64,000 nucleotides of DNA from Escherichia phage PJNS034, in the sequence record PP391266.1. One strand, 5' to 3'. The position numbers were made by a program, and so were the translations under genes. Position 1 is the first letter of the stretch; the number at the start of each line of letters is the position of its first letter. Shown here piece after piece: positions 4,501-32,282 of the stretch. Below the pieces are notes generated by a model, which was not told where the DNA came from, made no database searches, and was given only the letters and a program-made list of their open reading frames with translations.

Positions 4501-4501
4501 A

Positions 4502-4583: not shown

Positions 4584-4585
4584 AA

Positions 4586-4662: not shown

Positions 4663-4664
4663 AA

Positions 4665-4754: not shown

Positions 4755-4756
4755 AT

Positions 4757-4833
4757 TGTTTCGTAGCTCAGTTGGTAAGAGCGTTCGGCTGATAACCGAA
4801 AGGTCACAAGTTCGAGTCTTGTCGAAACAACCA
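4757..4833 (+). tRNA. tRNA-Ile (anticodon GAT), CCA encoded
   Basis: Canonical cloverleaf: acceptor tgtttcg/cgaaaca, D-arm gctc-agttggtaa-gagc, anticodon stem ttcgg/ccgaa with loop ctgataa, T-arm acaag-ttcgagt-cttgt. Confidence 0.85.
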
Positions 4834-4836
4834 AAT

Positions 4837-4925
4837 GACGGGTTGGCAGAGTTGGTTTATTGCAGCAGCTTGCTAAGTTGCCGAGTCGAAAGGCTCCGTG
4901 GGTTCGAATCCCACACCCGACGCCA
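4837..4925 (+). tRNA. tRNA-Ser (anticodon GCT), type II, CCA encoded
   Basis: Anticodon stem gcagc/gttgc with loop ttgctaa, 16-nt variable arm, T-arm gtggg-ttcgaat-cccac; acceptor has one A-A mismatch as read. Confidence 0.6.
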
Positions 4926-4926
4926 A

Positions 4927-5002
4927 GGACGATAAGCACATGTGGATGTGCGGCAGGCTGTTAACCTGATGGCAGTTGGTTCGAATCCAACATCGTCCGC
5001 CA
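4927..5002 (+). tRNA. tRNA-Asn (anticodon GTT), CCA encoded
   Basis: Acceptor ggacgat/atcgtcc, D-arm gcac...gtgc, anticodon loop ctgttaa, T-arm gttgg-ttcgaat-ccaac. Confidence 0.75.
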
Positions 5003-5004
5003 AT

Positions 5005-5079
5005 AGCGAGATAGTTCAGTGGTAGAATATCGGTTTCATACGCCGACCGTCGATGGTTCGATTCCATCTCTCGCTACCA
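5005..5079 (+). tRNA. tRNA with CAT anticodon (elongator Met or Ile2 type), CCA encoded
   Basis: Acceptor agcgaga/tctcgct fully paired at 1:72 (not initiator-like), anticodon stem tcggt/gccga with loop ttcatac, T-arm gatgg-ttcgatt-ccatc. Confidence 0.75.
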
Positions 5080-5095
5080 AACCTCTTTATCCGAT

Positions 5096-5167
5096 GGGAG
5101 TGTCCTTCTGGGAAGGATGTGGATTCCAACCCCACTAAGTAGAGTTCGATTCTTTACACTCCCGCCA
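5096..5167 (+). tRNA. tRNA-like, possibly tRNA-Gly (anticodon TCC), CCA encoded
   Basis: Acceptor gggagtg/cactccc and T-arm tagag-ttcgatt-cttta fold well; D-loop very short and one mismatch in the anticodon stem. Confidence 0.45.
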
Positions 5168-5174
5168 AATCCCT

Positions 5175-5251
5175 AGCCTTGTAGTGTAGTCTGGTTAGCA
5201 CACGTGACTTTGACTCACGGAGCTTAGGTTCGAATCCTGACAGGGCTGCCA
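5175..5251 (+). tRNA. tRNA-Gln (anticodon TTG), CCA encoded
   Basis: Acceptor agccttg/cagggct, D-arm gtgt...gcac, anticodon stem cgtga/tcacg with loop ctttgac, T-arm ttagg-ttcgaat-cctga. Confidence 0.8.
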
Positions 5252-12271: not shown

Positions 12272-12308
12272 AAGCCCCAAGGGATTTCTCCCAAGGGGCT
12301 TTTCTTTT
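12272..12308. terminator. bidirectional terminator between convergent gene blocks
   Basis: Palindromic agcccc-aaggga-tttc-tccc-aa-ggggct with T-runs on both strands, exactly where plus- and minus-strand gene blocks meet. Confidence 0.55.
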
Positions 12309-15300
12309 ACGCCATTCCTGCCACAGAACCACCGAGATTCATGTACTCTGCAAGGTTAGTGCCGTAAGCATCAGTTGCTCGTAAGTTACGAGACTGGAGA
12401 GCTTTCTTAACAGCACCATGACCAAGCAAGTGAGCAGAAGCTCGGATGCCTTCCATAGTTACCGGAACACCATCAATAGTCTGACCGATGTACTGGTCAA
12501 GACCCATGTTTTTGGTACGACGGTCTAACATCTTATTCCAATCTTCAAAAGCCTTTTCCTGTGCTTCTGGAGAGTTCAGGAACTCCTCTTTCGAGTTAAC
12601 CCCATACTTACCAGTCCAGTTAGACTTCTCGTTCAGAATAGATTTCTGACCACGACCAACACGACCTTGTGACTTGATAATACCTAAGTCAACAAGAGCA
12701 GGCCATCCAAATTGGTACTTACCGACATAACCGAGAGTGTTCTCGATATCGTACTTACCACCGGATTCACGCTGGCCTAACACGTCACCATATGCACTCA
12801 TCATACCTCCTGCATAAGCGCTACCAGCAAACATAGAAGTCAGACCAATTGCACTCAAACCTAATTTCTTAGCCAGTGCATTAGCTGATTTCTCGTTACG
12901 GGCATAACGAACGATAGTTTCTTTATCAGGGTCAACCATCGCATACTCATAGCCTTTATCAAAGGCTACCTCTGGTGAATCAACACCTTCTGCCAGTTCG
13001 TATGGGTTTACCACTTTGATTTCTGGGTCAGATTCCAGTGCTTTACCATCCAGAGCTTCTGCTGCGGTGTCTACAACTTGCTTAACCTGTTCGGTTGGCA
13101 TGTCTTGCATAGCATCGAGCATATTCTCTACTGGTGCTTCTGGAGTAGGAGTCGGTTCAGGTTGTGGTTCAGTTACCACTGGTTCTTCACGTACTGGAGC
13201 AGCAAAGTCTTCCTCAGCCATAACTACTGGCTTCTGTACTGGTTCATCCATCATCGCCTTAGCAATTGGGGATTCATCAGCACGTAAGGCTTGTTTGTAG
13301 TCTTCCAGACTGTTGTAAACCTTCGGAGCACGTTCTGGGTCATACAGGCCGTAAGCAGATGCGATTGCTCGCTGGTTAGCTGGCCCCATATAGTTGGTAG
13401 TCTCACCTTTCCCGAACACTGCTTTAATCTGGTTACGCATGTCCATAGTGTACAGGCCGTTAGCCCCATTCACCATTTTATCGTAGCCTTTAGAGCGACG
13501 GTATTCGATAGCACCAAGTACATCACCCATCGTCTTCGCCTGAGTCATTACGTCAGTAACAGATTCAGAAGCCTTACCTGCGTTGATTGCTTTCTTACCG
13601 AAGTTCTGAATTTGTTTCAGCATCGCATTGGATGCAGTAGCAATGTCAGCTTTCAGGGAATCAGCAATTGCAGCCACTTCTTCTGGAGTGTTACGGGCAA
13701 TGATTTCATCCAACGATGCACGAGTCTGTGCAGCCGTTTCTTCCAGTGACTTAACTTGCTCTTTCAGTGCCTTGATTGGAGCATCCAGTTGAGTTGCTTT
13801 CTTCTCAAGAATTTCCAGCTTACGTTCGTGTGCTTCTTTGCGTTTCTGCTCAGCAGCTTGTTCACGTTTCTGTTTGTCTTGGAGAGCCTTCTCTTCCTTC
13901 GCCTGTTTATCACGGAGAGCTTTGTCAGCAGCTTCTTGCTTATCGTGCATCTTCTGATATTCAGCAGCCAGTTTACGTTGTTCACGTTCCCAAGCCATAT
14001 CAGCTTTCTCACGAGCAGCTTCGTCTTTCGCTTGAGCTTTCGCTTCATCACGTTTAACACGAGCAGCATCTAACAGTTCTTTCTCACGGGCTTTGAAAGC
14101 AGCAATTTCCTCAGCATGTGAATCACGCTGTAAACGTTCTTCTGCACGTTGAGTTTCTTTCAGACGTTTCTGTTCAGCACTTGCTTGTTCTTTCTTCAGA
14201 CGGTCGCCACGTTGTAACAGCTTGTTAGCAGTTGCACGAAGTTCTTTCTGAGTCAGTGGAGCAGTAGAGCCGAAGGTCTGTGCTTCAACAACTTGTAATG
14301 CTTGTTCTTTCGGAATGCCAAGTGAATCAGCAAAGTCCATCAGGTTTTCATGCTGAGCATAAATCTGATTAACTGCATCATCTTCAGCTTTACGGGCTAC
14401 AGTCTCTTCTGGAGTCTCAGCACCTTTAGCCAGAGCATCACGCTCACGTTGCATTGCCTTAATCAGTGAAGCCTTCTCACTATTCGTAAGCTGACGCATA
14501 GAGCCAGTTACAGGGTCAATGTAAGGTGAAGTCAGGTCGTCCATTACGAACTGGTCAAGGCCGTACTTACTTGCCAAACCGGAAATATGTTCGTTCTGGG
14601 TTGTGATGTTTTTAGCTGCTTCATCACGGATACCTGCTTTAACTTCCTCTGCCTCTGTCTTAGCTTTCTCAGCCTGTGCATTACGAGCTTCCTCACGAGC
14701 ACGTTGAGCCAATTCAGTAATCTCACCAGCATCACGGATGTTAGCGATTTGGTCTTCCGGTACACCTGCACGACGAGCACGTTCTTCCAATGCTTGACGT
14801 TCAACTTGTGCTGCACGGTTACGAATGGTTTCAGTTTCACGAATAGCTGCACCCAATACTGCATCCAGACCACGAGGTGCTGGAGCATTTGGAGCAGGAG
14901 CCGCTGGAGTAGGTTCACCAGTTGCCAGTGCTTGCAGGTCAGATGGGTCACGAACTACAGGGGCAGGTTCTGGAACAACAGTAGGCTCTACAACCGTTGG
15001 TTCAGGAGTACGAGCGTATTCCATTGAAGCCAGAGATTGTAATGCTGCTTGTTCTTCTGCACGACTAATGAATCGAGCAGCCTGTTCAGAGTTAACTTCC
15101 GCAATCTGAGCATCAGACCAACCTTTGTTACGAAGCACTTCTGCCTGTACAGGAGAAACACCACCATCAGGTGCTGGCTGAGTCATTTCTGGAGTAACAA
15201 CTGGTTCAGGAGTTACAGTCTGTTCTGGAGCTACAGGTGGTACATCTGGAGTCGGCTCTGGAGCAACATCTGCTGGTGGCGGAGTTGGTTCTTCTGGAGC

Positions 15301-17139
15301 ACGAGCAGCCATAACACGGTTCTGAGCATCTGAGTCACGAGCGATTGCACGTAAGCCTTCGAAGTCCTGAGCCATACGAGCACGAGCTTTACCTTCACGA
15401 GAACGAGCGATGATACCCGGTAATTCAGTTGCACCGAAGGTTTTCAGAGCTACTACTGGCTTAGCCACTTTACCGATTGTCGCTGGTTGTGAAGCATAAT
15501 CTTCAATACCGTAACGATAAGCAGGGTCTTGGTTTGCCAACATCTTATCTTTGTAGATAAAGGATGCAGCATTCATTGCTGGGTTAAAACCTTTGTCACC
15601 AACAGTGAAACCATAGGTATCAAGTTGACGAGAGAGGTTTTCAGCACGTTGACCAATTGCATCGTAAATCAGTGAACGGTCAGAAGCGGTATCACGCATT
15701 GCTTTCACAATAGCGTTTGCATCGTTCATCATGTTACGCAGATTACGTTGCTGAGATATAGAAGCAGCAGGGTCAATCTCACCCATATCTTGACGCAGTT
15801 TCAGTTCCTGAATTGAATCATTCAACTGGTTAACTACATCTTCGAAAGCTGATACGTCTTGTGCTTGTGCTTTCTTACCATTACGACGGGCAGTAGCCAA
15901 TTCTTCTGGAGAGAACACGCGAGAACCGAAGTCCAAGTCACCAAGTGCTGATGCACCTGAAATCTTACGACGACGAGCAGCAGAGCGAATGTCACCTTCA
16001 GTCAGACCCATCATAGCTGCGGCAGAGCCGTAATCATCAGACAGTTCAGACAAGCCACGTTTCACACCAATGTCACGCATTGCTTCTGGAGAAATATCAA
16101 CACCAGCATCTTTCAAATCACCAAACGCTTTATAGAAAGCAGATGGGCCGATGTTTTCATTTACCTGAGCACGTTCCGTTACCAGTGCTTCACGCTGTTC
16201 TGGAGTAAGGTCTTTACCTACGAGGCTATTCAGTTCTTCATCACGGTGAAGGTTACGCATAGCTTCAACTTGGTCACGTTCAGTCAGGGCTGGATTACCA
16301 CCTGCTTCACGGATGTTACGGTCATTACGACCTGCAAAGCTACGAACTGCTGGAGCAATTTCCATTGGGGCACGAATACCACCAGAAACCAGACCACCAG
16401 TTACTGCATAATCCAACAGGTTTTGTGGGTCAACAGCAAGTTCCTGACGACGACCCATTTCGTATGCTGCACCAGAAGCGCCTGCACCGATTGCACCAGT
16501 TGCTACGGTTTCCGCCATTCGTCCAAGAGCAGTTTTACCGACAGTTGCAAAAGGCTTCCCATAGGGAATAAGCCCTAGAGCGGCTGCGGCAGTACCAGCA
16601 GTACGAGCGATATCCGTGTTACCAGCACCCTCTTGTTCAGCGTAGATAGAACCAGTGGTAGGGCCATATGAAGTAGCACCGAATGCTAAGTCACCAGCCA
16701 TTGTTGGTAAGCCAGATGCAGTTTGTTCTGCAACAAACGTACCCAAGTCACCTAAACCACGAATGTCACGCCAGTTTTCCACGGCATAACGTTGGTTCTT
16801 CTCACCATGCTCACGTAACTTACGGGCAAGTTCACGGTCATGATAAGACTGTTTAGTAACTTCACCTTCTTGCGTCTGACCAGCTTTCTGAGCCAAATCA
16901 GCCTGACGTGCTGCTGCTGCACCAAACAAACCTGATGCCAGTTCAGTACGTCCACGAGTAAACGCATTAGAGATGTTACCGAAGAATCCACGGTCTTCTG
17001 TTGGAGCTTCTTGTACAGGCAGGGGAGCCTGAGAGATGTTTTGTTCCTGAGCCATTGGGACATTGCCCGTAGGTTGTGGAGAGCCACCGCTTCCACTTTC
17101 CAATTGACGCAGTAATTCTGGGTCTGTAATTGGAGTCAT
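12307..17139 (-). CDS. large virion protein (1610 aa) with C-terminal lytic transglycosylase-like domain; internal ejection protein or tape-measure-like
   Basis: Gly/Ala-rich N-terminal third, Pro-rich linker (PEPTPDVPPVAPEQTVTPEP), long K/E/A coiled-coil, C-terminal QRESGGKY...GKYQFG resembling an SLT catalytic Glu-Ser segment. Confidence 0.55.
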   Translation of the reverse strand: MTPITDPELLRQLESGSGGSPQPTGNVPMAQEQNISQAPLPVQEAPTEDRGFFGNISNAFTRGRTELASGLFGAAAARQADLAQKAGQTQEGEVTKQSYHDRELARKLREHGEKNQRYAVENWRDIRGLGDLGTFVAEQTASGLPTMAGDLAFGATSYGPTTGSIYAEQEGAGNTDIARTAGTAAAALGLIPYGKPFATVGKTALGRMAETVATGAIGAGASGAAYEMGRRQELAVDPQNLLDYAVTGGLVSGGIRAPMEIAPAVRSFAGRNDRNIREAGGNPALTERDQVEAMRNLHRDEELNSLVGKDLTPEQREALVTERAQVNENIGPSAFYKAFGDLKDAGVDISPEAMRDIGVKRGLSELSDDYGSAAAMMGLTEGDIRSAARRRKISGASALGDLDFGSRVFSPEELATARRNGKKAQAQDVSAFEDVVNQLNDSIQELKLRQDMGEIDPAASISQQRNLRNMMNDANAIVKAMRDTASDRSLIYDAIGQRAENLSRQLDTYGFTVGDKGFNPAMNAASFIYKDKMLANQDPAYRYGIEDYASQPATIGKVAKPVVALKTFGATELPGIIARSREGKARARMAQDFEGLRAIARDSDAQNRVMAARAPEEPTPPPADVAPEPTPDVPPVAPEQTVTPEPVVTPEMTQPAPDGGVSPVQAEVLRNKGWSDAQIAEVNSEQAARFISRAEEQAALQSLASMEYARTPEPTVVEPTVVPEPAPVVRDPSDLQALATGEPTPAAPAPNAPAPRGLDAVLGAAIRETETIRNRAAQVERQALEERARRAGVPEDQIANIRDAGEITELAQRAREEARNAQAEKAKTEAEEVKAGIRDEAAKNITTQNEHISGLASKYGLDQFVMDDLTSPYIDPVTGSMRQLTNSEKASLIKAMQRERDALAKGAETPEETVARKAEDDAVNQIYAQHENLMDFADSLGIPKEQALQVVEAQTFGSTAPLTQKELRATANKLLQRGDRLKKEQASAEQKRLKETQRAEERLQRDSHAEEIAAFKAREKELLDAARVKRDEAKAQAKDEAAREKADMAWEREQRKLAAEYQKMHDKQEAADKALRDKQAKEEKALQDKQKREQAAEQKRKEAHERKLEILEKKATQLDAPIKALKEQVKSLEETAAQTRASLDEIIARNTPEEVAAIADSLKADIATASNAMLKQIQNFGKKAINAGKASESVTDVMTQAKTMGDVLGAIEYRRSKGYDKMVNGANGLYTMDMRNQIKAVFGKGETTNYMGPANQRAIASAYGLYDPERAPKVYNSLEDYKQALRADESPIAKAMMDEPVQKPVVMAEEDFAAPVREEPVVTEPQPEPTPTPEAPVENMLDAMQDMPTEQVKQVVDTAAEALDGKALESDPEIKVVNPYELAEGVDSPEVAFDKGYEYAMVDPDKETIVRYARNEKSANALAKKLGLSAIGLTSMFAGSAYAGGMMSAYGDVLGQRESGGKYDIENTLGYVGKYQFGWPALVDLGIIKSQGRVGRGQKSILNEKSNWTGKYGVNSKEEFLNSPEAQEKAFEDWNKMLDRRTKNMGLDQYIGQTIDGVPVTMEGIRASAHLLGHGAVKKALQSRNLRATDAYGTNLAEYMNLGGSVAGMA

Positions 17140-19196: not shown

Positions 19197-20213
19197 TTAC
19201 TTAAATGAACCTGTAGCACCCATAGAGGTATTCGAGGTAGAGCCAGAGGTTTTGCCAGAGCCAGTGGTGGTTTTGTCCATCAGTGGGTTCATCTTATTCA
19301 GAATATCCATGATAGTGTTAATATCCGTCACACCTGCATCTTTCAACTGCTGACCGACTTGGTTCATGTAGCCAGTGTCCAGTTCCTTCTGACCTTGTTG
19401 CTGCTGGAGATTACCAGACAGTAACTGGTTGAGGATAGACTGCTGACCTGCACCACTGATACGGTCAAGCTGGCCTAACGCCGAAGTACCACCTGAGATG
19501 GAGCCTAACAGACCTTGCAGACGGTTTTGAACGTTCTGCTGGTTCATGTTCTGAGAGATACCAAGACCTTGCTGATACATCTGAGAAGTCAAGTCAGCTT
19601 TCTGCTGGTTCGCTTGGTTCAAGATGTTTTGAGCAACATTGGAACTCTGCTCCATAGCTCCACGAGCAGCCACACCTTGAGCGATAGCAGAACGACTAGA
19701 GCCAACGTTGCCTTCGCCAACACCCTGACGGTAGATTGAGGGCATTGTGTTTTCTTGGAGGTTACGCTGGATAAGGCGGTTTGCTTGCTCAACTGAGCTT
19801 TGTGCAGACTGGTCGATTGCATCAGTTTGGTTCTTGAGAAAGTCACTGTTGACCATATCAAGAGCGCCCTGAGTCAGCTTACCAGTGGTCTGGTCAAAAG
19901 CACCTTCACCCATTTGGTTCAGGCTATCAACTGTACCCCACAGCTTATCAATACCGCCCTGAGTTTGGTCAAGAACAGATTGTAAGTGACCTGACTGATT
20001 GAGACGTTGAAGCGCAGCAAGCTGTTCTTCATTCATGCTCTCAATCTGTTTCTCAGTATAGCCTTGTTCTTTTAGCTTGTTATAGACACCATTGGCATCA
20101 CCTTTAATGGCATCAATGACGTCTTTTGGCAAGCCGGTTTGAGAAGTAGAAGTCGAAGACGACTTGCTGCTGCTCTTACCTTTACTCTTACCGAAACTTA
20201 ATCCGAAACCCAT
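19197..20213 (-). CDS. virion-module protein (338 aa), Ser/Gln/Asn-rich
   Basis: ORF-track ORF; start overlaps tail fibre stop; low-complexity S/T-rich C-terminus. Confidence 0.35.
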   Translation of the reverse strand: MGFGLSFGKSKGKSSSKSSSTSTSQTGLPKDVIDAIKGDANGVYNKLKEQGYTEKQIESMNEEQLAALQRLNQSGHLQSVLDQTQGGIDKLWGTVDSLNQMGEGAFDQTTGKLTQGALDMVNSDFLKNQTDAIDQSAQSSVEQANRLIQRNLQENTMPSIYRQGVGEGNVGSSRSAIAQGVAARGAMEQSSNVAQNILNQANQQKADLTSQMYQQGLGISQNMNQQNVQNRLQGLLGSISGGTSALGQLDRISGAGQQSILNQLLSGNLQQQQGQKELDTGYMNQVGQQLKDAGVTDINTIMDILNKMNPLMDKTTTGSGKTSGSTSNTSMGATGSFK

Positions 20214-22483
20214 TATGGAGTCTCCTCGTTGTTGATAGGAGGAGCCTCCGTAGAGACTCCATTCATCTTGTCATTATACAACGCATCCAGCTTCATCTCA
20301 AGCACTTGGACTCGTTCGTCAATCAGCCCCTTCACATTACTCTGTAACAGCTCTAAGGTCGTCCTGAGTGTCTCATTGTCGGCTTTGAGTTGTCGGTTCT
20401 GAGCAGAAAGTTCCTTGATAGCCTCGATGTGCAAAGCATGTAGCTGGTTGTAATCTACAGTGTAATAGTCCTCTTCATCCTCTTCGTCATTTGGATTGTT
20501 CCCAACGAAGACGGCATTGTCATATACTCCAAGCAATTCCTGAGCAATAACGCCTGCACTTGGTACATCGGAACCGTTATACATGAACGTATAACCATTC
20601 AGCTTCTCTACAGTTTCCAAGGCATTATCAACCTTTGTAACACTGTGTTTGAGACGTTCATCCGAGGCATTAACAACCTGACCAGTAATCTGACCATTCA
20701 CAGATAACTTAGATTGGTTATTTGCCAGACCTGTATTACGCTCCAGATACATGCCGTAGGGAAGACCTTCCCAACCCCATTCCAGAACAGTCTCACGAGC
20801 ACCAGAGCCCCACAAACGAAGGTTAGCCTCACGACCAGCACCATTAATACGTTTCCAGTATTGAGTAGAGTTGTAGTAAGTTGCACCATTCAAATGCGTA
20901 GGACAACCAAAAGAGGTAGCACCGTCGGTCATATTGATAGTGATAGGACGATGCCCTGTCCAGCCTCCCCAGCCGCCATCTGTATGAGATAACAGGAAGT
21001 ACATGTTTGCACCATCCTGACGGAATATGAAACCTTTGTTACCGTAGACAGCTCGGAATGAGTCAGCATGGGTCGAAGCTACACCGTAATACACAAACTT
21101 GTTAGGGTCGAAGTAACCTTTAACTGCACTGTTTGACCAGAGGTTTACTGCACCATCTGCTCGGAAGCCAAAACCTGAGTCATTATCGCCAATAGCTAAC
21201 TGTAAGGTGTTGTTAGCTTTGCTCTCAAGTTGGATTCGATTCCCAACATTCACAATGTCCTTGATGTTTGCATTACCTGAAGATGTAATGCTACGGTTGC
21301 AGATGTAACTATCTGTAGAAGTCTTCAGGTCAACTAACAAGTTGGCATTGGTTGGAGTTGTTACAGGGCCGACAGGAAATACAGCAGCATTAGGGGCAGT
21401 TCCCAACGATACTTGAGCTTTATGCAGAATTGGTGGAGTCTGAGACTCAATGTGGTATACATTATCTCCACGGACATAAACTACAAAACCGTAAAAATCC
21501 CTGCTACCAGCGAAAATGCCACCAAGTGTACGTTCATTATAATCGTAGACTGACAAAACACCGGAAACTACTTGAGGTGTATCAGACCAACCAGATGCTT
21601 GTACAAAACCAATAAATGAGTTCTGGTTGAAGGGGTCAGTACCGCCACGAGCTGTAGATTTGATACTCAGTCGAGTAGAGTTCCAAGTTTGGTCAAGGTT
21701 AAACTGGATTGGATAGAACCAGTCTTTATTCAATCCACGGGTATCAATTACATACCGTTTACCAATGTCCTGAGAAGCAGCATTCAATTCATCAAGAGAA
21801 GGTTTACGGCCTGTATGGTACACATCTTGGTCACTGTAAGTAAGGCGCCCATCATCTTTTAGTTGAAGGTACTTATTGGTTGCACCATTCTTCAGATAAA
21901 TGTCACCAGAACCAACGCCAAGGTCAAGAACTTTATTACCAGTTAGTTGTAGGTTCCCACCCTTCGGGATGTACTTACTGTCAGATTCACCTTTGGTATA
22001 AACACTAATCTTAGCCGCATATCCATTATCTGACTGAGCTTTAGTGTAGTATCGACCATCAGCTTCTGCTTTTGAATAGTATTGTTTGAGAGCTACCTGT
22101 ACTCGTGATTCTAGGTCTTGAATCCCTTCCGCTTGCTTGTTGAAATATGCAATAGCTGCTGAGATACGTTTAGCAAAGTCAGCAATTGTTTCATTCAGTG
22201 TGTTGATAATTGCATACTCCGTATCAGTCACACTGTCTTTGTTGAAAGCGGTACGAAGTTCAATCTCTGTGTTGGAGTTGACAGTCTTAATCTCTGCCAT
22301 CATGACATTATCGTCAGCAATAGAAATCAACACCAAGTCACCCGGAGTGATTCCCATCTTATCATCAGCCCACAAGGTATTTTTACCAGTGATTAAGGCT
22401 GAACCTGCCTTGTACGTTACCGTACCAGTTTTATACCACATACTACCTCCGAGGGAAGAAAGGCTCCAGAAGGAGCCAGTCAA
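20213..22483 (-). CDS. tail fibre/spike with C-terminal intramolecular chaperone (peptidase S74-like) domain
   Basis: C-terminal segment SDERLK...LNGYTFMYNG...GVIAQEL matches the self-cleaving chaperone module of endosialidase and T5 L-shaped fibre as recalled. Confidence 0.7.
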   Translation of the reverse strand: MTGSFWSLSSLGGSMWYKTGTVTYKAGSALITGKNTLWADDKMGITPGDLVLISIADDNVMMAEIKTVNSNTEIELRTAFNKDSVTDTEYAIINTLNETIADFAKRISAAIAYFNKQAEGIQDLESRVQVALKQYYSKAEADGRYYTKAQSDNGYAAKISVYTKGESDSKYIPKGGNLQLTGNKVLDLGVGSGDIYLKNGATNKYLQLKDDGRLTYSDQDVYHTGRKPSLDELNAASQDIGKRYVIDTRGLNKDWFYPIQFNLDQTWNSTRLSIKSTARGGTDPFNQNSFIGFVQASGWSDTPQVVSGVLSVYDYNERTLGGIFAGSRDFYGFVVYVRGDNVYHIESQTPPILHKAQVSLGTAPNAAVFPVGPVTTPTNANLLVDLKTSTDSYICNRSITSSGNANIKDIVNVGNRIQLESKANNTLQLAIGDNDSGFGFRADGAVNLWSNSAVKGYFDPNKFVYYGVASTHADSFRAVYGNKGFIFRQDGANMYFLLSHTDGGWGGWTGHRPITINMTDGATSFGCPTHLNGATYYNSTQYWKRINGAGREANLRLWGSGARETVLEWGWEGLPYGMYLERNTGLANNQSKLSVNGQITGQVVNASDERLKHSVTKVDNALETVEKLNGYTFMYNGSDVPSAGVIAQELLGVYDNAVFVGNNPNDEEDEEDYYTVDYNQLHALHIEAIKELSAQNRQLKADNETLRTTLELLQSNVKGLIDERVQVLEMKLDALYNDKMNGVSTEAPPINNEETP

Positions 22484-22735
22484 TTACTGCAACTTGCTGG
22501 CTAAGTCGCCATACAGATTATTCAATTCCATCATCTGATTAGTCAGGTCGAAAATTTGATTAGAGGTTTCAATTTTAAATGAAACCAACTGAGAGTTAAG
22601 TTCATCCACTTCTTTCTGAAGCTTACGGTTATTCTCAGCATTACTCTCAATCAAATCACGAAGTTCTTGAAGACGGCTATCGTGAGAAGACAGGGAATTT
22701 TCGATACCTGACAAGCGAAGTTCTAGTTCAGTCAT
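22484..22735 (-). CDS. hypothetical coiled-coil protein (83 aa)
   Basis: ORF-track ORF; heptad-rich. Confidence 0.3.
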   Translation of the reverse strand: MTELELRLSGIENSLSSHDSRLQELRDLIESNAENNRKLQKEVDELNSQLVSFKIETSNQIFDLTNQMMELNNLYGDLASKLQ

Positions 22736-22764: not shown

Positions 22765-25647
22765 TTATAACGAAATTTGTACACGCAGTACACCGGCATT
22801 GTCGTAGAGTCGGATTGCATTATTAGAAATCTTCAGACCACGGTTTGCGGCAGTGTTATCTTGAATCAAGATATTACCATTTGACTCCACCTTCATTCGG
22901 TTTGAAATATTCAAAGTACCACCTGTGATGTTAGTACCATTGATATTACCTCCATTAATGTTAGAGCCAGTGATGGTTGCACCATTCAAGTTCTTAACAT
23001 TAATCTGCTGTGCTGCAAGGTTCACAATAGCAGCAGTATCGATGTAGGCAGTCTTGATTCGGACTGTACCATTGATAATCTCAAATGGATTGATGGAGTT
23101 CTTTGAGTCTCGGTTACGAACAATGAATCGGTCAGCATCAACCACAAATGCAGAGTTAGCACCACCGTTAATCAAGCCAAAACCAGCAGGTACACCAGCC
23201 ACATTTGAACGAACAGCCCAAAGAGCTTCGTGCTTGTTGTTAGCACTAGATGCAACACTTGAGACTTGCTGTAAGGTAGTTTTAGTACCATTCAGGTCAG
23301 TCTGTAAAGTGTTTGCCTGAGAGGTAAGTGCATTCGTCTTATCAGTCAGAGTTTTTACCTCGTTCGTGATTCGAGAAGTGTTTGCATTCACCTTAGCATC
23401 AACGGAAGATACACGAGATGCCATTGCGGTATCTTTGGCAGTCACCACCTTTTCCAGTGCGGCAATCTGAGCCTTAACAGAAGTGTTCACTGTTGACTCA
23501 AGGCTGTTCAGTCGAGAGGTTACGTTACCATCGAGAGTAGAAACAGATTTCTTCACATCGTTGATAGAACCTTCGGCTGTACCTAAACGAGTGCTCAGTC
23601 CAGATACCTGAGTAGCGGTTGCGTTGGCTTTATCTGCTGTTGCCTTAACATCAGTTGTCACTTGTGCAATAGTTTTGCTCTGTGAATCTAAATTAAGAGC
23701 ATTATTAACTCCCGCTTTAGAAGCAGAATCAACACTAGCAACAAGATTGTCAACCCGCTGTGCAAGAGAAGAAGTGGAATCAGCAACTGTCTTCTTGAGT
23801 GCTTGTACCGATGCGTCATTGTCATTTACCGTTGATTGCATCGCTTCTACTTGCTTTGAAATAGCCAAGATAGCAGTAGAACGAGCTTCGCTTTCCGCCT
23901 GAATCTTAGATTCGTTACCGGCAACACGAGAATCCATGCTGTCTACTTTCTTAACTGCTGCATCCATTTTGGTGGTTACAGTGCTTTCCAGTTCGGTAAC
24001 TTTAGCGATAGTCTCGCCAATACGAGATTCAGCCCCAGATACTTTCTCAGTCACAGCTTTCAGTGCATCAGCCTGAGTCTGAGTTTGTTCTTTGATTGCA
24101 GCCTCATTGTGGTTAGCTTTTGCCTCGACACCACTTAACTGAGTAGCCAGAGAACCCATAGCATCTGAGCGAGCTTTGCTTTCATCAGTAATTCGAGTAT
24201 TAGCTAACTGCACTTCTTTCTCAAAGCGTTCAGCCTGAGAGTTGATACGGTCTTCAATCTCTTGGAATTGAGTAGCGGTAAAGCCATCTAAACCAGTCAA
24301 TTGGTCACGATACATAGAAGTGGTAACGTTGATTTTACCATCCATTTCAGGACGACCCACATGCTCCATACCTTGACCAGCGGGGATAGTGTCATATCCC
24401 ATCAGGGCATAAGAACCACCTTCTGCAACTGAGTCGATGCCAATTTCCGTACCACCAAGAGCAATCAGAGATTCTTTCAGTTTTGGAAGGAACTCACCAG
24501 CATACTGATAAGTATAAACCATCTGTAAGTAATCACGATTGAAGGATGCTACACGGTCTTTGAAATCTTGAACCCATTTAGCATCATCACCATCATTGAA
24601 CGACCAGTTGTAAGCACCAGTACGTTCCTGAGTCTTACGATTGATAACGACTAAGTTAATACCGGGTTTTGCAGTTGACAGGACAGTTTCTTCACGCAGT
24701 TCACGTACACCAAAGAACTCAGGGGCAGCCGCTTCACGTGAGGATGAAGCCACTTCTTCGTGAGGAGCACCGGCAGTAGACATATTATATGTCTTCATGA
24801 ACTCAGTGCTGTTCATTGCCATCTCTCCAGCTTTCTTCGCCTCGACAAAGGCTTGGTTCGCTGTATCGTTGACGTTGGTGTACTTGGTTTCTAGATTATC
24901 AATCTTCTGAGCAGTTGATTCCTTGTCAGTAGTGATAGTCTGCTTCATCTGCTCAATGTCAGCTTTGTTGGTGTTGGACTGTGACTTAACACCTTCAATC
25001 TGAGTAGCTGTAGCTTTGTCCTGTTCAGTTACAACCTGTTGGAATGCAGCCAATTGAGCCAGAACCAAATCATCACCAGCTTTCACCTTCTCAGCGATAT
25101 CAGATGATAGCGCATCCTTAATCCCCTGAAGGGCTTCCCCATCTGCACCAATGTTATCCCATTTCTCTTGAGCCTCTGTTGCTGACTTATTCAGATTCGA
25201 AATCTGTTCAGACAGTTTGGTTTGAGACTCTTTAAGAGCTTCACGAGCTTCATTGGTTTCTTTCAGGAGTTGGTTAACGACTTCATCCTGAGCGTGGGAG
25301 ATATCTTCACGGAGAAACTCACTCAACTTCTTGGTAAGGGCATCTTCATCAGTAGAGATTGCATCAAGTTGCTTTTTAACTTCATCAACTTGCTTTCCAA
25401 TGTCACCAAGTTCTGTCCCATTCAGTTTGTTGATAGCCTCCCAAAGTTTCTTGATTTCTTCCTTGAGAGCTTCAATAGCAGCGGGGTCGCCTCCCGAAGA
25501 AGAGAGGCGCATCAGTTCATCAATAGCGATTTCGAGTTTGTCGAACTCAGCCATTACGTCTGCCACCGACTGAGTTAAGTCGTTAGCGGTAATAAAACCA
25601 CGACGATATGGTAACGCTACTTCTAAACGCTTATTAGTGGCAGCCAT
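22765..25647 (-). CDS. fibrous virion protein (960 aa), tail fibre/needle-like
   Basis: Long coiled-coil/low-complexity T/S/A-rich central region and C-terminal NINGGNINGTNITGG repeats. Confidence 0.45.
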   Translation of the reverse strand: MAATNKRLEVALPYRRGFITANDLTQSVADVMAEFDKLEIAIDELMRLSSSGGDPAAIEALKEEIKKLWEAINKLNGTELGDIGKQVDEVKKQLDAISTDEDALTKKLSEFLREDISHAQDEVVNQLLKETNEAREALKESQTKLSEQISNLNKSATEAQEKWDNIGADGEALQGIKDALSSDIAEKVKAGDDLVLAQLAAFQQVVTEQDKATATQIEGVKSQSNTNKADIEQMKQTITTDKESTAQKIDNLETKYTNVNDTANQAFVEAKKAGEMAMNSTEFMKTYNMSTAGAPHEEVASSSREAAAPEFFGVRELREETVLSTAKPGINLVVINRKTQERTGAYNWSFNDGDDAKWVQDFKDRVASFNRDYLQMVYTYQYAGEFLPKLKESLIALGGTEIGIDSVAEGGSYALMGYDTIPAGQGMEHVGRPEMDGKINVTTSMYRDQLTGLDGFTATQFQEIEDRINSQAERFEKEVQLANTRITDESKARSDAMGSLATQLSGVEAKANHNEAAIKEQTQTQADALKAVTEKVSGAESRIGETIAKVTELESTVTTKMDAAVKKVDSMDSRVAGNESKIQAESEARSTAILAISKQVEAMQSTVNDNDASVQALKKTVADSTSSLAQRVDNLVASVDSASKAGVNNALNLDSQSKTIAQVTTDVKATADKANATATQVSGLSTRLGTAEGSINDVKKSVSTLDGNVTSRLNSLESTVNTSVKAQIAALEKVVTAKDTAMASRVSSVDAKVNANTSRITNEVKTLTDKTNALTSQANTLQTDLNGTKTTLQQVSSVASSANNKHEALWAVRSNVAGVPAGFGLINGGANSAFVVDADRFIVRNRDSKNSINPFEIINGTVRIKTAYIDTAAIVNLAAQQINVKNLNGATITGSNINGGNINGTNITGGTLNISNRMKVESNGNILIQDNTAANRGLKISNNAIRLYDNAGVLRVQISL

Positions 25648-27465: not shown

Positions 27466-28350
27466 TTAGGCAGTACGTTGCCAGATGAACATCGCAAAGC
27501 CTGGGTCATATGTATCGAAACGAGCGTTACCACCAGTGTTCTGAGAACGGAAGTCGATTCGGTGTGAGTGATTACCAGCCGCAGAGGTGTTGGTATCAAT
27601 ATACAGGAATCGGTCGTTATCGTTATCTGAACCTTTGGAACCGAGGTTACGGTTATAGCCACCCGGAGTTGGTTCGATAAAAGGCAGTGACCATACAGTC
27701 GTGTTTGCTTCGATGTAGTAACGGTCACGGTATGGGTGGGTGTGGTTCCCAGCATCCTGGGTCTGACCTACAACTTGGTGGCTGTGAGCAGGTAAGTTAC
27801 CTTCAACCAACTGAGTTTTATAGAAGCCCGGAGTCTTACCAACGTTAGGGAAGTTGATAGAATCACGACCATCTGAGTCAGAGCCTTGACCTACAATATA
27901 ACGACCAGCAGCAATACGAACCCAAGTACCTACGCCAAGTAACTGAGCAGGGTTTTGGTTTACCATAGTGAAGTACACAGAGCCTACAGGCCATGCTTGT
28001 CCACGAGCTGCTGCTGAGTTGAAGTAAGCAAGAGTTACTGCATCCTGAGGAGCAGCAGGGTTGGATACGTTCTGAAGACGGTTGCCACCACAGTTCATGG
28101 TCTTATTAGCTGCCATCGTTACAGAACCATTGATAGTCACATCACCATTCGTGTTAGTAGCTGAGAACGTCTTATCAAGGTTATTCAACTTGTCAGCACT
28201 CATTGTGACAACTTTGTTGATATTCGGGAAGGTAGTTTTCAGTACCTGCTTAATCAAACGGAGGTGGTCATCACCTTCTTTAATCAAGTCAACGTTACGC
28301 GGGAATGATGGATTGAGTTGGTCAATAGTGTTAGCTACTTCTACACTCAT
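27466..28350 (-). CDS. tail fibre-like protein (294 aa)
   Basis: Segment CGGNRLQNVSNPAAPQDAVTLAYF resembles the conserved attachment motif of many phage tail fibre proteins; followed by a terminator. Confidence 0.45.
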   Translation of the reverse strand: MSVEVANTIDQLNPSFPRNVDLIKEGDDHLRLIKQVLKTTFPNINKVVTMSADKLNNLDKTFSATNTNGDVTINGSVTMAANKTMNCGGNRLQNVSNPAAPQDAVTLAYFNSAAARGQAWPVGSVYFTMVNQNPAQLLGVGTWVRIAAGRYIVGQGSDSDGRDSINFPNVGKTPGFYKTQLVEGNLPAHSHQVVGQTQDAGNHTHPYRDRYYIEANTTVWSLPFIEPTPGGYNRNLGSKGSDNDNDRFLYIDTNTSAAGNHSHRIDFRSQNTGGNARFDTYDPGFAMFIWQRTA

Positions 28351-28599: not shown

Positions 28600-31467
28600 T
28601 TACTTGTTCGTTTTGTCAGGTTTGATAGTCAGGTCGTACATGTCGTCGCCGACGTTCATCTGTTTCGTCAACAGATACAAGGCCATTCCTCGGAGAATCT
28701 CACCAGACCAGAAACCGAAGAACATACCGTTGTCAGTGCCCAGACGTACTGCTGGACTCCAAGAACCATTCATGATTTGGTCAGGTACACCAGTGTTAAT
28801 GAAGTTGTTTTCCAACTCAGTCACACAAGTTTCAATGAGGAAATCAAGACCTTCAACCTTACTACCAGCCAGCTTAGCGAAACAAGAACCTGCTAACCAC
28901 AGACCACACATGTGACCAGTGAAGTCATTCGGGTCAGGCTTAGGAAGGCTTTCTGGTGGGAAGTCAGTTGGAGTGATACCACCACTGTCCTTCACGAACT
29001 GTACAAGCCATTTAATCCAGTTCTCGGAATAATCTTTGAGCTTCTGAGGGATGGGCTTGCCTTGCAGCATAAGCTCATACCAAGCTCGACATGCACCCAT
29101 CATAGCACGAGGTTGGTATCCAGACCAAGCAGTTCCATCACCCCAATGGTACATTGTCCACGTATCAGGTTTACCATATTTCAGGTTATCCCAACGGTTC
29201 CAGATGTAAGCACTCATGCCCGGCCCAACGACACCAAATTTCTTCGTGTATGCAACCTGAGAGTCCCACAACATGTTAACCATCTGTGTCATGTGTCCCG
29301 CCCACTCGTTTGGAGTCTGGTCAATGGTGTAGATGAATGGATACTGATATCCCGGATAAGGCATACCACGCCAACCATCGAACTGAGCAGTATCAGGAAC
29401 AGAGATGTTCGAGAATGGAATAGTTCCCGGTGTGTACGCCAAGTTATTCTCTTTGAAGTCAACAATCGTACAGTCACCAACCTTAGCTACGAAGTCTTTC
29501 TGACCACTAATAGTTAAGGAGAATAGGAGAGTGTAAGTATCATTGGTAGTGAATCGACGAGGCAGTTCGTTTACAGAGTACCACTGGAAATAGCAATCCT
29601 TCTCGGTGTCCAGAATCACAGCAACAACTTGTTTCAGCTTGGTGTAATTAGGACGAGAAGGACGAGGAGGTGGAACCCAACCCGGAGGCTTGCCTTCTGG
29701 GTCTTCATTTGGCTGATACTCATTCAGAATCAAAGAAGAGCGAGGTAATGATTTATTTACCCACTTATCTTTTGTATCCTGCATCACCCAATGCCAACGC
29801 CAACCATCATCATCGACAACACGAAGCTCGAATGAGTTGTTAGTCTTGAACGACATTGCTGTTACATCCAGCGCTTCATCATCTAGAAGCCAGAAGCCGA
29901 TAATCAAGCCATCACTGAATTTAGACATATCCACTCGGTTAGTCAAGGCAGAGCGAGTATCAACAACATTGTTCTCATACACCATGTCTGATTTGGCATC
30001 ACCATAGACTACCACAGAACGAGAATCTGACAGGACGAATGATGAACCATCTGCTTTAGTTGCTTCAACCAAGCCAGAGAACGGAATATCAAAAGTATTA
30101 ACTGCACTCGTCTTTGAAACAGGGAAAGGGGCAGCCCAACGAGTTGAACCCGGAGCATCTGAATCTTTAACTGAGTTTAAGCGTAATACAGCACGAGCCT
30201 CTAATGCACTACCATCTGATGCAACACCACCGTATTGAACACGCAGTTTGGAGTTCTGACCAGCACGGAACCAAATAGCCTGTTGCTCAATCGTAACCTG
30301 AGCACCAGTTGGCTCTTTAATTTGGATGTTGATATAACCTTCTTCATCACGAGTGTAGATGGGTTCTACTTCAGATGGGTAGGTGTAATCGTAGGAGATG
30401 CCATCAGTGAATGGGGTATTATCGTTGACTGACTTACGGAAGAATTTATCTTTGCTGTCAATCTCTGAATAAGCACGACATGTTTCAAGGGCACATTGCC
30501 AACCCATCCAATACTTATCTTCGCCAGTAACACGCCACATCAGGTAACAAGCATCCGCCCACCATAACTCAGCATCCGCAGCATTACCAAGATAGTCAGG
30601 AGGTACAGGAACGTTCAAGGGGCGGTTGTGCCAAGGTTGGTTACGTTCGATATACTCACCACCAAACTCGATAGGTTGACGGTTAGCGAAGTTAGTTTTG
30701 TGTTCACCATTCACAGTGGTGTCTTGAAGTTTAATCAGACCTTTCTGGTCTTCAGGTAAACCTTCCTCAATTACATCACCATCCCAATTGATTTTCTTCC
30801 CTTCCCAATTGACAATCCAATCCACTGGATAAACAACACCGTCGTGATTCCAGTCAGTTGAACCATCTTCATTGATAGCCTGTACACTTGCGTTGATTGC
30901 ATCCCAAGCAAGAGCACCATCAAATGCGAAGGTAGCTTTATCAAGGAACTGACCGAAGTATTTATCATCGTGTGGAATCTGAGTGATACCATTATTGTAG
31001 AACATCATCTCACCCTTAAAACCTGAGTGAGTTGGAGCCTTACGGTCAATAGGCCAGTTAGCAAGGATAGGCTCCTTACCATTCACAATCCAGTTACAAA
31101 TGAACGGTTGTGGTGAGGTCGGCATCTTCTGACCCCAATAGAAGAAGTTGAAGTAAGCATCCCAACACCACTTCGCTTTCTCCAACCAAACTTCATCACG
31201 AGTTGCAATGTACATGTACACATAACCCATCACCTGAAGAGACTGACCTTCCGTGGTCGCGTCTCCATTAGGCTGTGCTTCCATCTGTGATGCAGCAATG
31301 AAGTGACGGTTGTTTGCAAGTACGCCATCAGGGTTAAACACAAAGTGGTCTACCTGAGCGTCATTAGTCAGGCCAGTGTTACGGTCGAGAAAGTATTGGT
31401 GGCCTTTAGCCATTTGCAATACACCTGCCGTATCACTAATGTTCTCGAAGCACAGCGATTTAATCAT
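28600..31467 (-). CDS. large virion protein (955 aa), tail/tailspike-like
   Basis: ORF-track ORF in structural block, aromatic-rich; no motif recognised. Confidence 0.4.
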   Translation of the reverse strand: MIKSLCFENISDTAGVLQMAKGHQYFLDRNTGLTNDAQVDHFVFNPDGVLANNRHFIAASQMEAQPNGDATTEGQSLQVMGYVYMYIATRDEVWLEKAKWCWDAYFNFFYWGQKMPTSPQPFICNWIVNGKEPILANWPIDRKAPTHSGFKGEMMFYNNGITQIPHDDKYFGQFLDKATFAFDGALAWDAINASVQAINEDGSTDWNHDGVVYPVDWIVNWEGKKINWDGDVIEEGLPEDQKGLIKLQDTTVNGEHKTNFANRQPIEFGGEYIERNQPWHNRPLNVPVPPDYLGNAADAELWWADACYLMWRVTGEDKYWMGWQCALETCRAYSEIDSKDKFFRKSVNDNTPFTDGISYDYTYPSEVEPIYTRDEEGYINIQIKEPTGAQVTIEQQAIWFRAGQNSKLRVQYGGVASDGSALEARAVLRLNSVKDSDAPGSTRWAAPFPVSKTSAVNTFDIPFSGLVEATKADGSSFVLSDSRSVVVYGDAKSDMVYENNVVDTRSALTNRVDMSKFSDGLIIGFWLLDDEALDVTAMSFKTNNSFELRVVDDDGWRWHWVMQDTKDKWVNKSLPRSSLILNEYQPNEDPEGKPPGWVPPPRPSRPNYTKLKQVVAVILDTEKDCYFQWYSVNELPRRFTTNDTYTLLFSLTISGQKDFVAKVGDCTIVDFKENNLAYTPGTIPFSNISVPDTAQFDGWRGMPYPGYQYPFIYTIDQTPNEWAGHMTQMVNMLWDSQVAYTKKFGVVGPGMSAYIWNRWDNLKYGKPDTWTMYHWGDGTAWSGYQPRAMMGACRAWYELMLQGKPIPQKLKDYSENWIKWLVQFVKDSGGITPTDFPPESLPKPDPNDFTGHMCGLWLAGSCFAKLAGSKVEGLDFLIETCVTELENNFINTGVPDQIMNGSWSPAVRLGTDNGMFFGFWSGEILRGMALYLLTKQMNVGDDMYDLTIKPDKTNK

Positions 31468-32282
31468 TTAAACCAACCTCCATTGAAGAATCCTAACCAA
31501 GTTTTACCTTCGTCATAAGTCAGGAGCGTAACAACATCCTTACGTCCCATTTCCAATGATAACACAGGTTTACGGTCTTGACTCCACTTAATCTTGCTGT
31601 CCCAATTTGGAATCTTGTTCGCACCAGTACCTTGTTCCAGAATAACAGTCAACTGACGTGCTACTGTAGGCTCTGTCTTGAACTCAGCAAAACTGACAGA
31701 GGTTTCTGCTTCCATGAGTACATGGTGAGATACAGAACCCTTAGTTGGGTCTAGTACGATGAAGTTGGATGCGTCTTCTTCCCAGAAAGAGTAAGCAGAA
31801 GCAAGGGCGTAAGACTTAATCAAAGCTAAGGTTTCATTTACTTCTTTTCGGAAGTTAGCCATCTGAACTTCAAGGGCATTCATCTCACCCTTCAGTTCTT
31901 CTGACATTTGACGAATCACAACAACTTGAGCATCAATGTAAGGCTTCTGAACATTAACAATGTCGTCGTACACTTCCATGATGTTATCCAGAACACCGAG
32001 CTTATCAATGATTTCTTCCAGACGAGGATAGTAATCATCAATCAGCTTCATATAGTCCTGCATCTTTTCATCAATCTGACGAACCTCTTTAAGCGTATCC
32101 TCAATCAACTGAGTCTTATACAGCAGAGAAATGATATCCATAATCTCTGCTGTGTTATTCCCGAACTGACCAACGTTTGCCTCATAACGTTCGATGATTG
32201 CACGTTGCTCAGCATCGAGAGCTTCAGCGGGCATGATTGAGTTGGGAGCATAAGATTCGACAGTACGTGAATATAAGCCCAT
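31464..32282 (-). CDS. virion-module protein (272 aa)
   Basis: ORF-track ORF; stop overlaps next start. Confidence 0.35.
   Translation of the reverse strand: MGLYSRTVESYAPNSIMPAEALDAEQRAIIERYEANVGQFGNNTAEIMDIISLLYKTQLIEDTLKEVRQIDEKMQDYMKLIDDYYPRLEEIIDKLGVLDNIMEVYDDIVNVQKPYIDAQVVVIRQMSEELKGEMNALEVQMANFRKEVNETLALIKSYALASAYSFWEEDASNFIVLDPTKGSVSHHVLMEAETSVSFAEFKTEPTVARQLTVILEQGTGANKIPNWDSKIKWSQDRKPVLSLEMGRKDVVTLLTYDEGKTWLGFFNGGWFK

What the first reader, a model, noticed from the sequence alone, without database searches (positions are those of the whole stretch)
20213..22483. Tail fibre carrying a self-cleaving C-terminal chaperone module
The SDERLK...LNGYTFMY segment matches the intramolecular chaperone domain that trimerises the fibre and then cleaves itself off at the Ser. 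It marks this protein as a receptor-binding fibre or spike.
Basis: partly seen in the sequence, partly recalled or inferred. Interest (0 to 1): 0.3.

Follow-up and report, generated by a model that had tools for sequence, protein, structure and literature searches.

The report
Tail fibre with self-cleaving chaperone

Summary
Confirmed and ordinary. The window is Escherichia phage PJNS034, a ~65.7-kb phage whose capsid is distantly related to the phiEco32 group; the database names this protein "hypothetical protein". The gene is on the minus strand. The true start is the ATG at 22441, not the TTG at 22483, so the protein is 742 aa.

In 742-aa numbering, SDERLK is residues 593-598 and LNGYTFMY is 614-621.

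- **Family match:** Pfam Peptidase_S74 matches at E=6e-11, 42.9 bits against a cutoff of 22.
- **Catalytic residues:** Ser593 and Lys598 (the Ser/Lys+5 dyad) are invariant in the relatives.
- **Sequence profile:** it reaches the solved modules of S16 gp37 (1e-25), MyRF (9e-13) and GA-1 (2e-3).

Predicted cleavage at Ala592|Ser593 gives a 64.9-kDa mature fibre and a 16.9-kDa released fragment. Upstream lie an anchor domain shared with T1-like lateral fibres, Y-x-K-x-E-x-D repeats, a rare mid-domain, and T4 gp34/Mu S-like domains.

The one unusual feature is a ~52-aa C-terminal extension: a heptad helix modelled at 65 residues plus a conserved end. The conserved end coincides with a conserved gene junction.

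Processing and receptor binding are inferred, not shown.

The parts
20213..22441 (-). Tail fibre gene, 742 aa plus stop. This is the true extent; the mechanical ORF runs to 22483.
22446..22450 (-). GGAGG ribosome-binding site, 4 nt upstream of the ATG at 22441
   Evidence: sequence read directly
22142..22441 (-). N-terminal domain (aa 1-100), a beta-rich presumed virion-attachment domain. It is shared with lateral tail fibres of T1-like siphoviruses.
   Evidence: PHROGs 12714/1591/1798. tblastn to Warwickvirus lateral tail fibres. blastp to the FritzSarasin fibre, E=2e-12. pLDDT 60-84 in the full-length model.
21917..22141 (-). Helical stretch (aa ~101-127) followed by three Y-x-K-x-E-x-D shaft repeats (aa 121-155)
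21122..21916 (-). Shaft and mid-domain (aa 176-440). No Pfam family, few relatives, and the most divergent part compared with TacPo2 (42-46% identity). Candidate specificity determinant.
20882..21121 (-). T4 gp34 / Mu protein S-type trimerisation domain (aa 441-520)
20666..20881 (-). Pre-cleavage distal tip (aa 521-592), with motif RLWGSG..RETVLEWGW..YLERN..LSVNG. It would become the C-terminal end of the mature fibre.
   Evidence: Conserved columns. Weak gp34-like motif match. Beta strands with pLDDT 84-90.
20648..20668 (-). Predicted scissile site Ala592|Ser593 and catalytic dyad Ser593/Lys598 (A-SDERLK)
   Evidence: Mechanism taken from PMC4690869, PMC8326128 and PMC7917993.
20402..20665 (-). 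Peptidase S74 / intramolecular chaperone core (aa 593-680)
20216..20401 (-). C-terminal extension beyond the usual family end (aa 681-742). It continues the heptad coiled coil to about aa 722 and ends in the conserved tail NGVSTEAPPINNEETP.
20199..20263 (-). DNA block conserved across PJNS034, TacPo2, L003 and L005. It spans the fibre's last 16 codons, a GAGGAG ribosome-binding site, the TAATG stop/start overlap and the first codons of the downstream ejection-protein gene.

Best explanation
The gene encodes a homotrimeric tail fibre of a phage whose capsid is distantly related to the phiEco32 group. The N-terminal ~100 residues would attach it to the tail. A shaft, a mid-domain and gp34/Mu-S-like domains form the fibre body. 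The last 150 residues are a peptidase S74 intramolecular chaperone.

By analogy with K1F endosialidase, T5 pb1, S16 gp37 and MyRF, the mechanism would run as follows. The C-terminal helices of three chains form a coiled coil that brings the chains into register and nucleates folding of the preceding interdigitated beta-structure. Once the trimer is correctly folded, Ser593, activated by Lys598, attacks the Ala592-Ser593 bond. The 16.9-kDa acidic module is released, leaving a 64.9-kDa mature fibre whose new C-terminal tip points at the host.

Shown here: family membership, the catalytic residues, the fold and the genomic context. Inferred: trimerisation, the actual cleavage, and receptor binding.
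For: - **Curated profile:** Pfam S74 matches at 42.9 bits against a cutoff of 22.
- **Tail-fibre families:** 37 PHROG families match, nearly all annotated as tail fibre.
- **Catalytic residues:** S593, D594, R596, L597 and K598 are invariant in the relatives. Among the top 150 representative clusters, 137 of 141 motif-bearing sequences read SDxRxK, and Ser and Lys are in 100% of aligned columns.
- **Abundance and position:** 12,484 clusters carry the module, almost always at the extreme C-terminus.
- **Solved relatives by sequence profile:** S16 gp37 1e-25, MyRF ICA 9.4e-13, 8jov fibre 6.9e-10, GA-1 appendage chaperone 1.8e-3.
- **Aromatic residues:** F619 and Y621 occupy the columns aligned with the stretch of MyRF that holds Y615/Y617 (alignment; residues from PMC8326128).
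- **Genomic context:** the gene lies in a tail and ejection module.
- **Divergence:** the fibre is 56% identical to its TacPo2 orthologue, against 70-79% for core virion genes.
Against: - There are no experimental data on processing for this phage.
- The upstream Arg sensor of K1F (R897) and T5 (R1250) sits at Ser-14, and here that position is Leu579. The nearest basic residue, Lys578, is Met in relative P0007. MyRF shows that this sensor is not universal (PMC8326128).
- T5 pb1 itself was never recovered by my profiles or fold searches. The link to it runs only through the shared Pfam family.
- The part most divergent from TacPo2 is the mid-domain (42-46% identity), not the distal tip (67%), so where the receptor binds is unclear.
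- The phage has at least three other candidate host-recognition proteins.
Confidence: 0.85

Rival explanations
1. S16/T2-type arrangement. The module is cleaved, but the exposed tip is not itself the adhesin. It is a docking surface for a separate, small receptor-binding protein.
For: The closest solved relative of the module is S16 gp37. In S16, autocleavage exposes the gp38 docking surface (PMC7917993). The distal tip is relatively conserved against the Pantoea phage TacPo2 (67%) and against P0007 (94%).
Against: No gp38-like gene is adjacent. The downstream gene is a conserved ejection-type protein (78% identical to TacPo2; phrog_4287). The upstream gene is an 83-aa coiled coil. None of the ten neighbouring proteins gave an adhesin family match. 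The pre-Ser sequence is unrelated to the S16 dock.
Confidence: 0.06
2. The module is retained. It folds the fibre but is not released, or is released only partly, so the long coiled coil remains as the distal end of the virion fibre.
For: The module is unusually long: 150 aa from the Ser against a family median of 98, which puts it in the top ~3%. It has a 65-residue heptad helix and a conserved terminal peptide. The Arg sensor position is not conserved.
Against: The Ser/Lys dyad and all other family-conserved positions are intact. Long modules are cleaved in known cases: the T5 pb1 module is 133 residues (PMC4690869), and from my own recollection the K1F module is about 153. The conserved terminal peptide coincides with a conserved gene junction and the downstream ribosome-binding site, which explains its conservation without a protein function.
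Confidence: 0.06
3. The protein is an accessory fibre that does not determine host range, and the main receptor-binding proteins are the neighbouring genes.
For: Three other tail genes are as divergent or more so against TacPo2: the 960-aa protein with a lambda tail-tip domain (49%), the 294-aa gp10_C protein (53%) and the 272-aa fibre-like protein (56%). T5 L-shaped fibres, which use the same module, bind polymannose O-antigen reversibly (PMC4690869 and a title in its reference list). That they are dispensable accessories is my own recollection.
Against: Even accessory fibres of this kind bind surface glycans, so 'receptor-binding fibre' in the broad sense would still hold. This rival does not touch the S74 assignment.
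Confidence: 0.2

Closest known systems
Peptidase S74 / C-terminal intramolecular chaperone domain (K1F endosialidase endoNF, 3GW6; Pfam PF13884)
   Different: Very low sequence identity (10-13%). The upstream passenger is a gp34/Mu-S-like fibre, not a sialidase with a triple beta-helix stalk. The Arg sensor at Ser-14 is not conserved.
Salmonella phage S16 gp37 distal long-tail-fibre subunit (6F45)
   Same: Best solved sequence relative of the module (profile E=1e-25). Documented autocleavage at ...S^SDRRIKK. Similar core length.
   Different: S16 is a T4-like myovirus whose cleaved tip docks the gp38 adhesin, and no gp38-like gene is found here. The S16 module is 113 aa, against 150 aa here.
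T5 L-shaped tail fibre pb1 (Ser1264/Lys1269, 133-aa module)
   Same: A lateral fibre that ends in a self-cleaving S74 module, by shared Pfam family and mechanism.
   Different: T5 pb1 was not recovered by my sequence profiles or fold searches. The distal domains are unrelated (bullet-shaped in pb1, gp34-like here).
Lateral tail fibre of T1-like siphoviruses (e.g. Escherichia phage FritzSarasin bas04_0030, Warwickvirus)
   Same: Same overall plan: a related N-terminal anchor and mid-domain (23% identity over ~400 aa, E=2e-12) and an S74-type C-terminus (TSDRDLK...).
   Different: It sits on a long non-contractile tail. It has a long alanine/glutamine-rich coil in place of the Y-x-K-x-E-x-D repeats, and different distal domains.
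Myelin regulatory factor (MyRF) ICA domain (7DC3)
   Different: It is a eukaryotic membrane-bound transcription factor, where cleavage releases a DNA-binding domain rather than maturing a virion fibre.
Pantoea phage TacPo2 gene 59 (WXX18514.1)
   Same: Orthologue in the same gene order, 56% identical, with the same domain series and an 82% identical S74 core.
   Different: It is annotated only as hypothetical. It has an 18-aa shorter coiled coil and a divergent mid-domain, and it lacks the small upstream coiled-coil gene.

Membership tests
Peptidase S74 / intramolecular chaperone (CIMCD, ICA) domain | Match to the curated family profile above its gathering score | tested here: met
   PF13884: 42.9 bits against a cutoff of 22, E=6.2e-11. 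The same family is precomputed for the identical protein and for four relatives.
Peptidase S74 / intramolecular chaperone (CIMCD, ICA) domain | Catalytic Ser followed by Lys at +5 (endoNF S911/K916, T5 S1264/K1269, MyRF S587/K592) | tested here: met
   Ser593 and Lys598 in SDERLK. They are invariant in the relatives and present in 100% of 141 aligned family members. They align with the motif of S16, MyRF and GA-1.
Peptidase S74 / intramolecular chaperone (CIMCD, ICA) domain | Position at the extreme C-terminus of a fibre or spike protein | tested here: met
   The module is residues 593-742 of 742. In the 150 best representative clusters the match also ends at or near the C-terminus.
Peptidase S74 / intramolecular chaperone (CIMCD, ICA) domain | Characteristic fold: alpha/beta core plus a C-terminal helix that forms the trimeric coiled coil | tested here: met
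Peptidase S74 / intramolecular chaperone (CIMCD, ICA) domain | Upstream basic 'folding sensor' from a neighbouring subunit (endoNF R897, T5 R1250, both at Ser-14) | tested here: inconclusive
   Ser-14 is Leu579. Lys578 at Ser-15 is K/R in four relatives but Met in P0007. No trimer model could be built. MyRF lacks such a sensor (PMC8326128), so the feature is not universal.
Peptidase S74 / intramolecular chaperone (CIMCD, ICA) domain | Autoproteolytic release of the module after trimer folding, and dependence of folding on the module | not testable with these tools
   This needs SDS-PAGE or mass spectrometry of virions or recombinant protein, plus S593A/K598A and truncation mutants.
T4 gp34-type C-terminal trimerisation domain (PF21446) | Match to the curated profile and to solved gp34 and Mu S structures | tested here: met
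   41.7 bits against a cutoff of 27. Sequence matches: 5yvq 2.7e-9 and 4uxe 1.2e-6. Profile matches: 6.7e-17 and 4.3e-16. Foldseek 4e-5.
S16/T2-type gp37-gp38 two-component adhesin tip | A separate gp38-like adhesin gene next to the fibre gene | tested here: not met
   The downstream gene is a conserved ejection-type protein and the upstream gene is an 83-aa coiled coil. No adhesin family appears among the ten neighbours. The rest of the window was not scanned for gp38.

The most novel reading that the evidence does not exclude
The ~52-residue extension that sets this module apart is an eight-heptad leucine-zipper-like coil ending in the peptide NGVS-EAPPIN-EETP. The end peptide is conserved in TacPo2, L003 and L005, although the coil before it differs in length or cannot be aligned. 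The most novel reading left open has two forms. In the first, the extension gives the 'disposable' fragment a second role, such as timing of release, docking during tail assembly, or an activity after release. In the second, the conserved 3' block acts as a fixed recombination anchor that lets this phage group swap fibre cassettes.
Probability: 0.1. Interest if true: 0.4.

Novelty: new member of a known kind. Interest (0 to 1): 0.15.

Why it matters
The practical value is in annotation. The protein is deposited as "hypothetical protein" in both PJNS034 and TacPo2. It can now be named a tail fibre with a peptidase S74 chaperone, with a predicted maturation site (Ala592|Ser593) and product sizes (64.9 and 16.9 kDa).

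PJNS034 is cited in a paper title as a broad-spectrum phage for controlling bacteria in dairy products (reference list of PMC13030339). Knowing which genes are likely host-range determinants therefore helps host-range engineering. Those genes are this fibre plus the 960-, 294- and 272-aa tail genes.

For recombinant work it also says where to truncate the fibre and which residue to mutate. It does not change the understanding of the S74 family.

Tried and rejected
**Searches and models that gave little**
- Megablast of the gene against 50,697 phage records found nothing. The phage is not in that collection, and only TacPo2 is related at protein level.
- NCBIfam has no model for the protein.
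- A single-sequence PDB search reached only S16 gp37 for the module. Profiles were needed, and even those never reached T5 pb1.
- The pattern-based scan of viral contigs gave one distant locus (L002), which was of no use.
- The search for relatives of the mid-domain found a single protein, so that domain could not be modelled or classified.
- The full-length AF2 model with six sequences was poor (pLDDT 43.7). Its Foldseek hits outside Mu S and gp34 are small beta-barrels (lambda and Chi tail tips, ATPase N-domains) at TM below 0.1, and I do not interpret them.
- Model coordinates are not exposed, so the Ser-Lys distance could not be measured.
- Internal DNA repeats in the gene are chance-level.

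**Ideas considered and rejected**
- That the TTG at 22483 is the start. See the observation check.
- That L005 carries a true two-gene fibre. It has an in-frame TGA replacing a Gly codon.
- That the conserved C-terminal peptide must be functional as protein. It coincides with a conserved DNA junction and the next gene's ribosome-binding site.

**Correction:** early on I took the siphovirus hits to be Dhillonvirus. The record shows Warwickvirus, Drexlerviridae.
Full report
**What is there**

The stated coordinates hold a 756-codon open reading frame on the minus strand, counted from the first TTG after a stop. SDERLK lies at window 20665..20648 and LNGYTFMY at 20602..20579. SD.R.K occurs only once in all six frames of the window.

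The real gene is shorter at its 5' end:
- A GGAGG ribosome-binding site sits 4 nt upstream of the ATG at 22441.
- The only close phage homologue aligns from residue 15.
- The identical database protein is 742 aa.
- A GC-rich hairpin followed by a T-rich run lies at 22477..22462, inside the supposed extra codons.

All numbering below is for the 742-aa protein. The catalytic Ser is 593 and the Lys is 598.

**Source and setting**

The protein is 100% identical to a "hypothetical protein" of Escherichia phage PJNS034, whose longest contig is 65,715 bp. Within the library searched, I found PJNS034 only as a title in the reference list of PMC13030339, where it is described as a cold-adapted broad-spectrum phage for use in dairy products.

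The nearest annotated genome is Pantoea phage TacPo2, where every gene is labelled hypothetical. The major capsid protein is 42-48% identical to those of phiEco32, GAP52 and LAh_8, and more distantly to LUZ24. I know those as short-tailed phages from general knowledge. None of the structural genes I scanned with PHROGs matched a tail-tube or tape-measure family as its best hit.

The minus-strand gene order runs as follows:
1. terminase, portal, scaffold and capsid
2. a 272-aa fibre-like protein
3. a 955-aa tail protein
4. a 294-aa gp10_C protein
5. a 574-aa structural protein
6. a 960-aa coiled-coil protein with a lambda tail-tip domain
7. an 83-aa coiled coil
8. this fibre
9. a 338-aa ejection-type protein, then 108-aa and 497-aa proteins
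10. a 1610-aa protein with a lysozyme-like end

Core genes are 70-79% identical to TacPo2. This fibre (56%) and the 960-, 294- and 272-aa tail genes (49-56%) are markedly more divergent. That is the usual signature of host-range determinants.

**The C-terminal module**

- **Curated profile.** Pfam Peptidase_S74 matches residues 593-644 at 42.9 bits against a cutoff of 22.
- **Abundance.** An exhaustive search of 1.84 billion representative proteins with the last 302 residues found 12,484 clusters at E<=0.001. The match lies almost always at the extreme C-terminus of proteins from 156 to 2577 aa.
- **Motif conservation.** Of 141 top hits carrying a recognisable motif, 137 read SDxRxK. In their alignment Ser, Asp and Lys occupy 100% of the columns. 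PJNS034 carries the consensus residue at the strongly conserved positions, including A607, L608, G616, Y617, T618, F619, G630, A633, Q634, E635, A643, Y664, E673, A674, K676, E677 and L678.
- **Solved relatives by sequence.** A 34-sequence profile reaches S16 gp37 (1e-25), MyRF ICA (9.4e-13), a further fibre 8jov (6.9e-10) and the GA-1 appendage chaperone (1.8e-3). The printed alignments show the motif in register for S16 gp37 and for MyRF and GA-1.

**Mechanism, by analogy**

In T5 pb1, Ser1264 is activated by Lys1269 and the Thr1263-Ser1264 bond is cut. An Arg from a neighbouring chain makes cleavage depend on correct trimer folding (PMC4690869). S16 gp37 is cut at DLNVS^SDRRIKK, which releases 113 residues (PMC7917993). 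MyRF is cut at P586|S587, S587A and K592A abolish cleavage, and the C-terminal coiled coil drives trimerisation (PMC8326128).

Transposed here, cleavage at Ala592|Ser593 would give a 64.9-kDa mature fibre and a 16.9-kDa fragment of pI 4.3, from an 81.8-kDa precursor.

The neighbouring-subunit Arg sensor could not be assigned. Ser-14 is Leu, and the adjacent Lys578 is not invariant. Only a monomer could be modelled.

**The rest of the fibre**

- **Residues 1-100** are a beta-rich domain (pLDDT 60-84) shared with several PHROG fibre families.
- **Residues 1-397** resemble the lateral tail fibre of T1-like siphoviruses (23% identity, E=2e-12). That fibre also ends in an S74-type motif, TSDRDLK.
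- **Next** come a helical stretch and three Y-x-K-x-E-x-D repeats.
- **Residues 176-440** are a shaft and mid-domain with no Pfam family and almost no relatives. It is the part most divergent from TacPo2.
- **Residues 441-520** are a gp34/Mu-S-type trimerisation domain.
- **Residues 521-592** are a tip whose RLWG..R..V.E..Y..RN..NG motif weakly echoes another gp34 domain.

**The one unusual feature**

The family median from the Ser to the C-terminus is 98 residues. Here it is 150, in the top ~3%, and alignment occupancy collapses after about residue 690.

The extra part continues an uninterrupted heptad register. The d positions are L678, L685, L692, L699, L706, V713 and A720. The helix is modelled at 65 residues. 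It ends in NGVSTEAPPINNEETP.

That end is conserved in TacPo2, L003 and L005, although the coil before it differs in length or cannot be aligned. At the DNA level it forms one conserved block with a GAGGAG ribosome-binding site, a TAATG stop/start overlap and the start of the conserved downstream gene. A conserved gene junction therefore explains the peptide's conservation without any protein function, although a function is not excluded.

**Verdict**

This is a new, previously unannotated member of a very large and well-understood family. Interest is low. Processing and receptor binding remain to be shown experimentally.

Noticed in passing
window 4423-5251 (+): A tight cluster of ten tRNA genes (Pro, Tyr, Lys, Ser, Ile, Ser, Asn, Met, Trp, Gln).
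   Followed up: no
window 22484-22735 (-): An 83-aa coiled-coil ORF lies immediately upstream of the fibre gene. Counterparts of 86 aa (L003 5697-5957) and 92 aa (L005 4508-4786) sit in the same position. They are highly divergent and share only an N-terminal E-x-RL-x-x-lE motif. TacPo2 has no such gene. It could be a fibre-associated or assembly factor, but its function is unknown.
   Followed up: partly
window 22462-22477 (-): The GC hairpin GGCTCCTTCTGGAGCC, followed by TTTCTTCCCT, lies between the 83-aa ORF's stop and the fibre's ribosome-binding site. It looks like a terminator or attenuator, and it lies inside the mechanically extended TTG ORF.
   Followed up: no
L005 4828-7215 (Logan SRR26913649 contig): In this metagenomic relative the fibre is called as two ORFs of 377 and 404 aa. 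The cause is an in-frame TGA where PJNS034 has Gly325 (YVR*DN against YVRGDN). It could be a nonsense mutation, a sequencing error or a recoding site.
   Followed up: partly
window 20199-20263 (-): The fibre's last 16 codons, a GAGGAG site, the TAATG overlap and the start of the 338-aa gene form a DNA block conserved in PJNS034, TacPo2, L003 and L005. The sequence just upstream cannot be aligned. It may be the boundary of an exchangeable fibre cassette.
   Followed up: partly
window 22765-25647, 27466-28350, 31464-32282 (-): Three further tail genes are as divergent from TacPo2 as the fibre, so the phage probably carries several host-recognition proteins. They are the 960-aa coiled-coil protein with a lambda Phage_Tail_Tip domain (49%), the 294-aa T4 gp10_C-like protein (53%) and the 272-aa fibre-like protein (56%).
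   Followed up: partly
window 12307-17139 (-): A 1610-aa protein at the end of the ejection-protein block has a C-terminal ~160 aa matching a 'baseplate hub subunit and tail lysozyme' PHROG family. It is probably an internal virion protein with cell-wall-degrading activity.
   Followed up: no
L002 1553-2572 and 3785-4450: An unrelated viral contig carries two short fibres (339 and 221 aa) in tandem. Each ends in an S74-type module (YSDDRLKTRLG) and each has alanine/serine-rich 'SSYANSAF' repeats.
   Followed up: no
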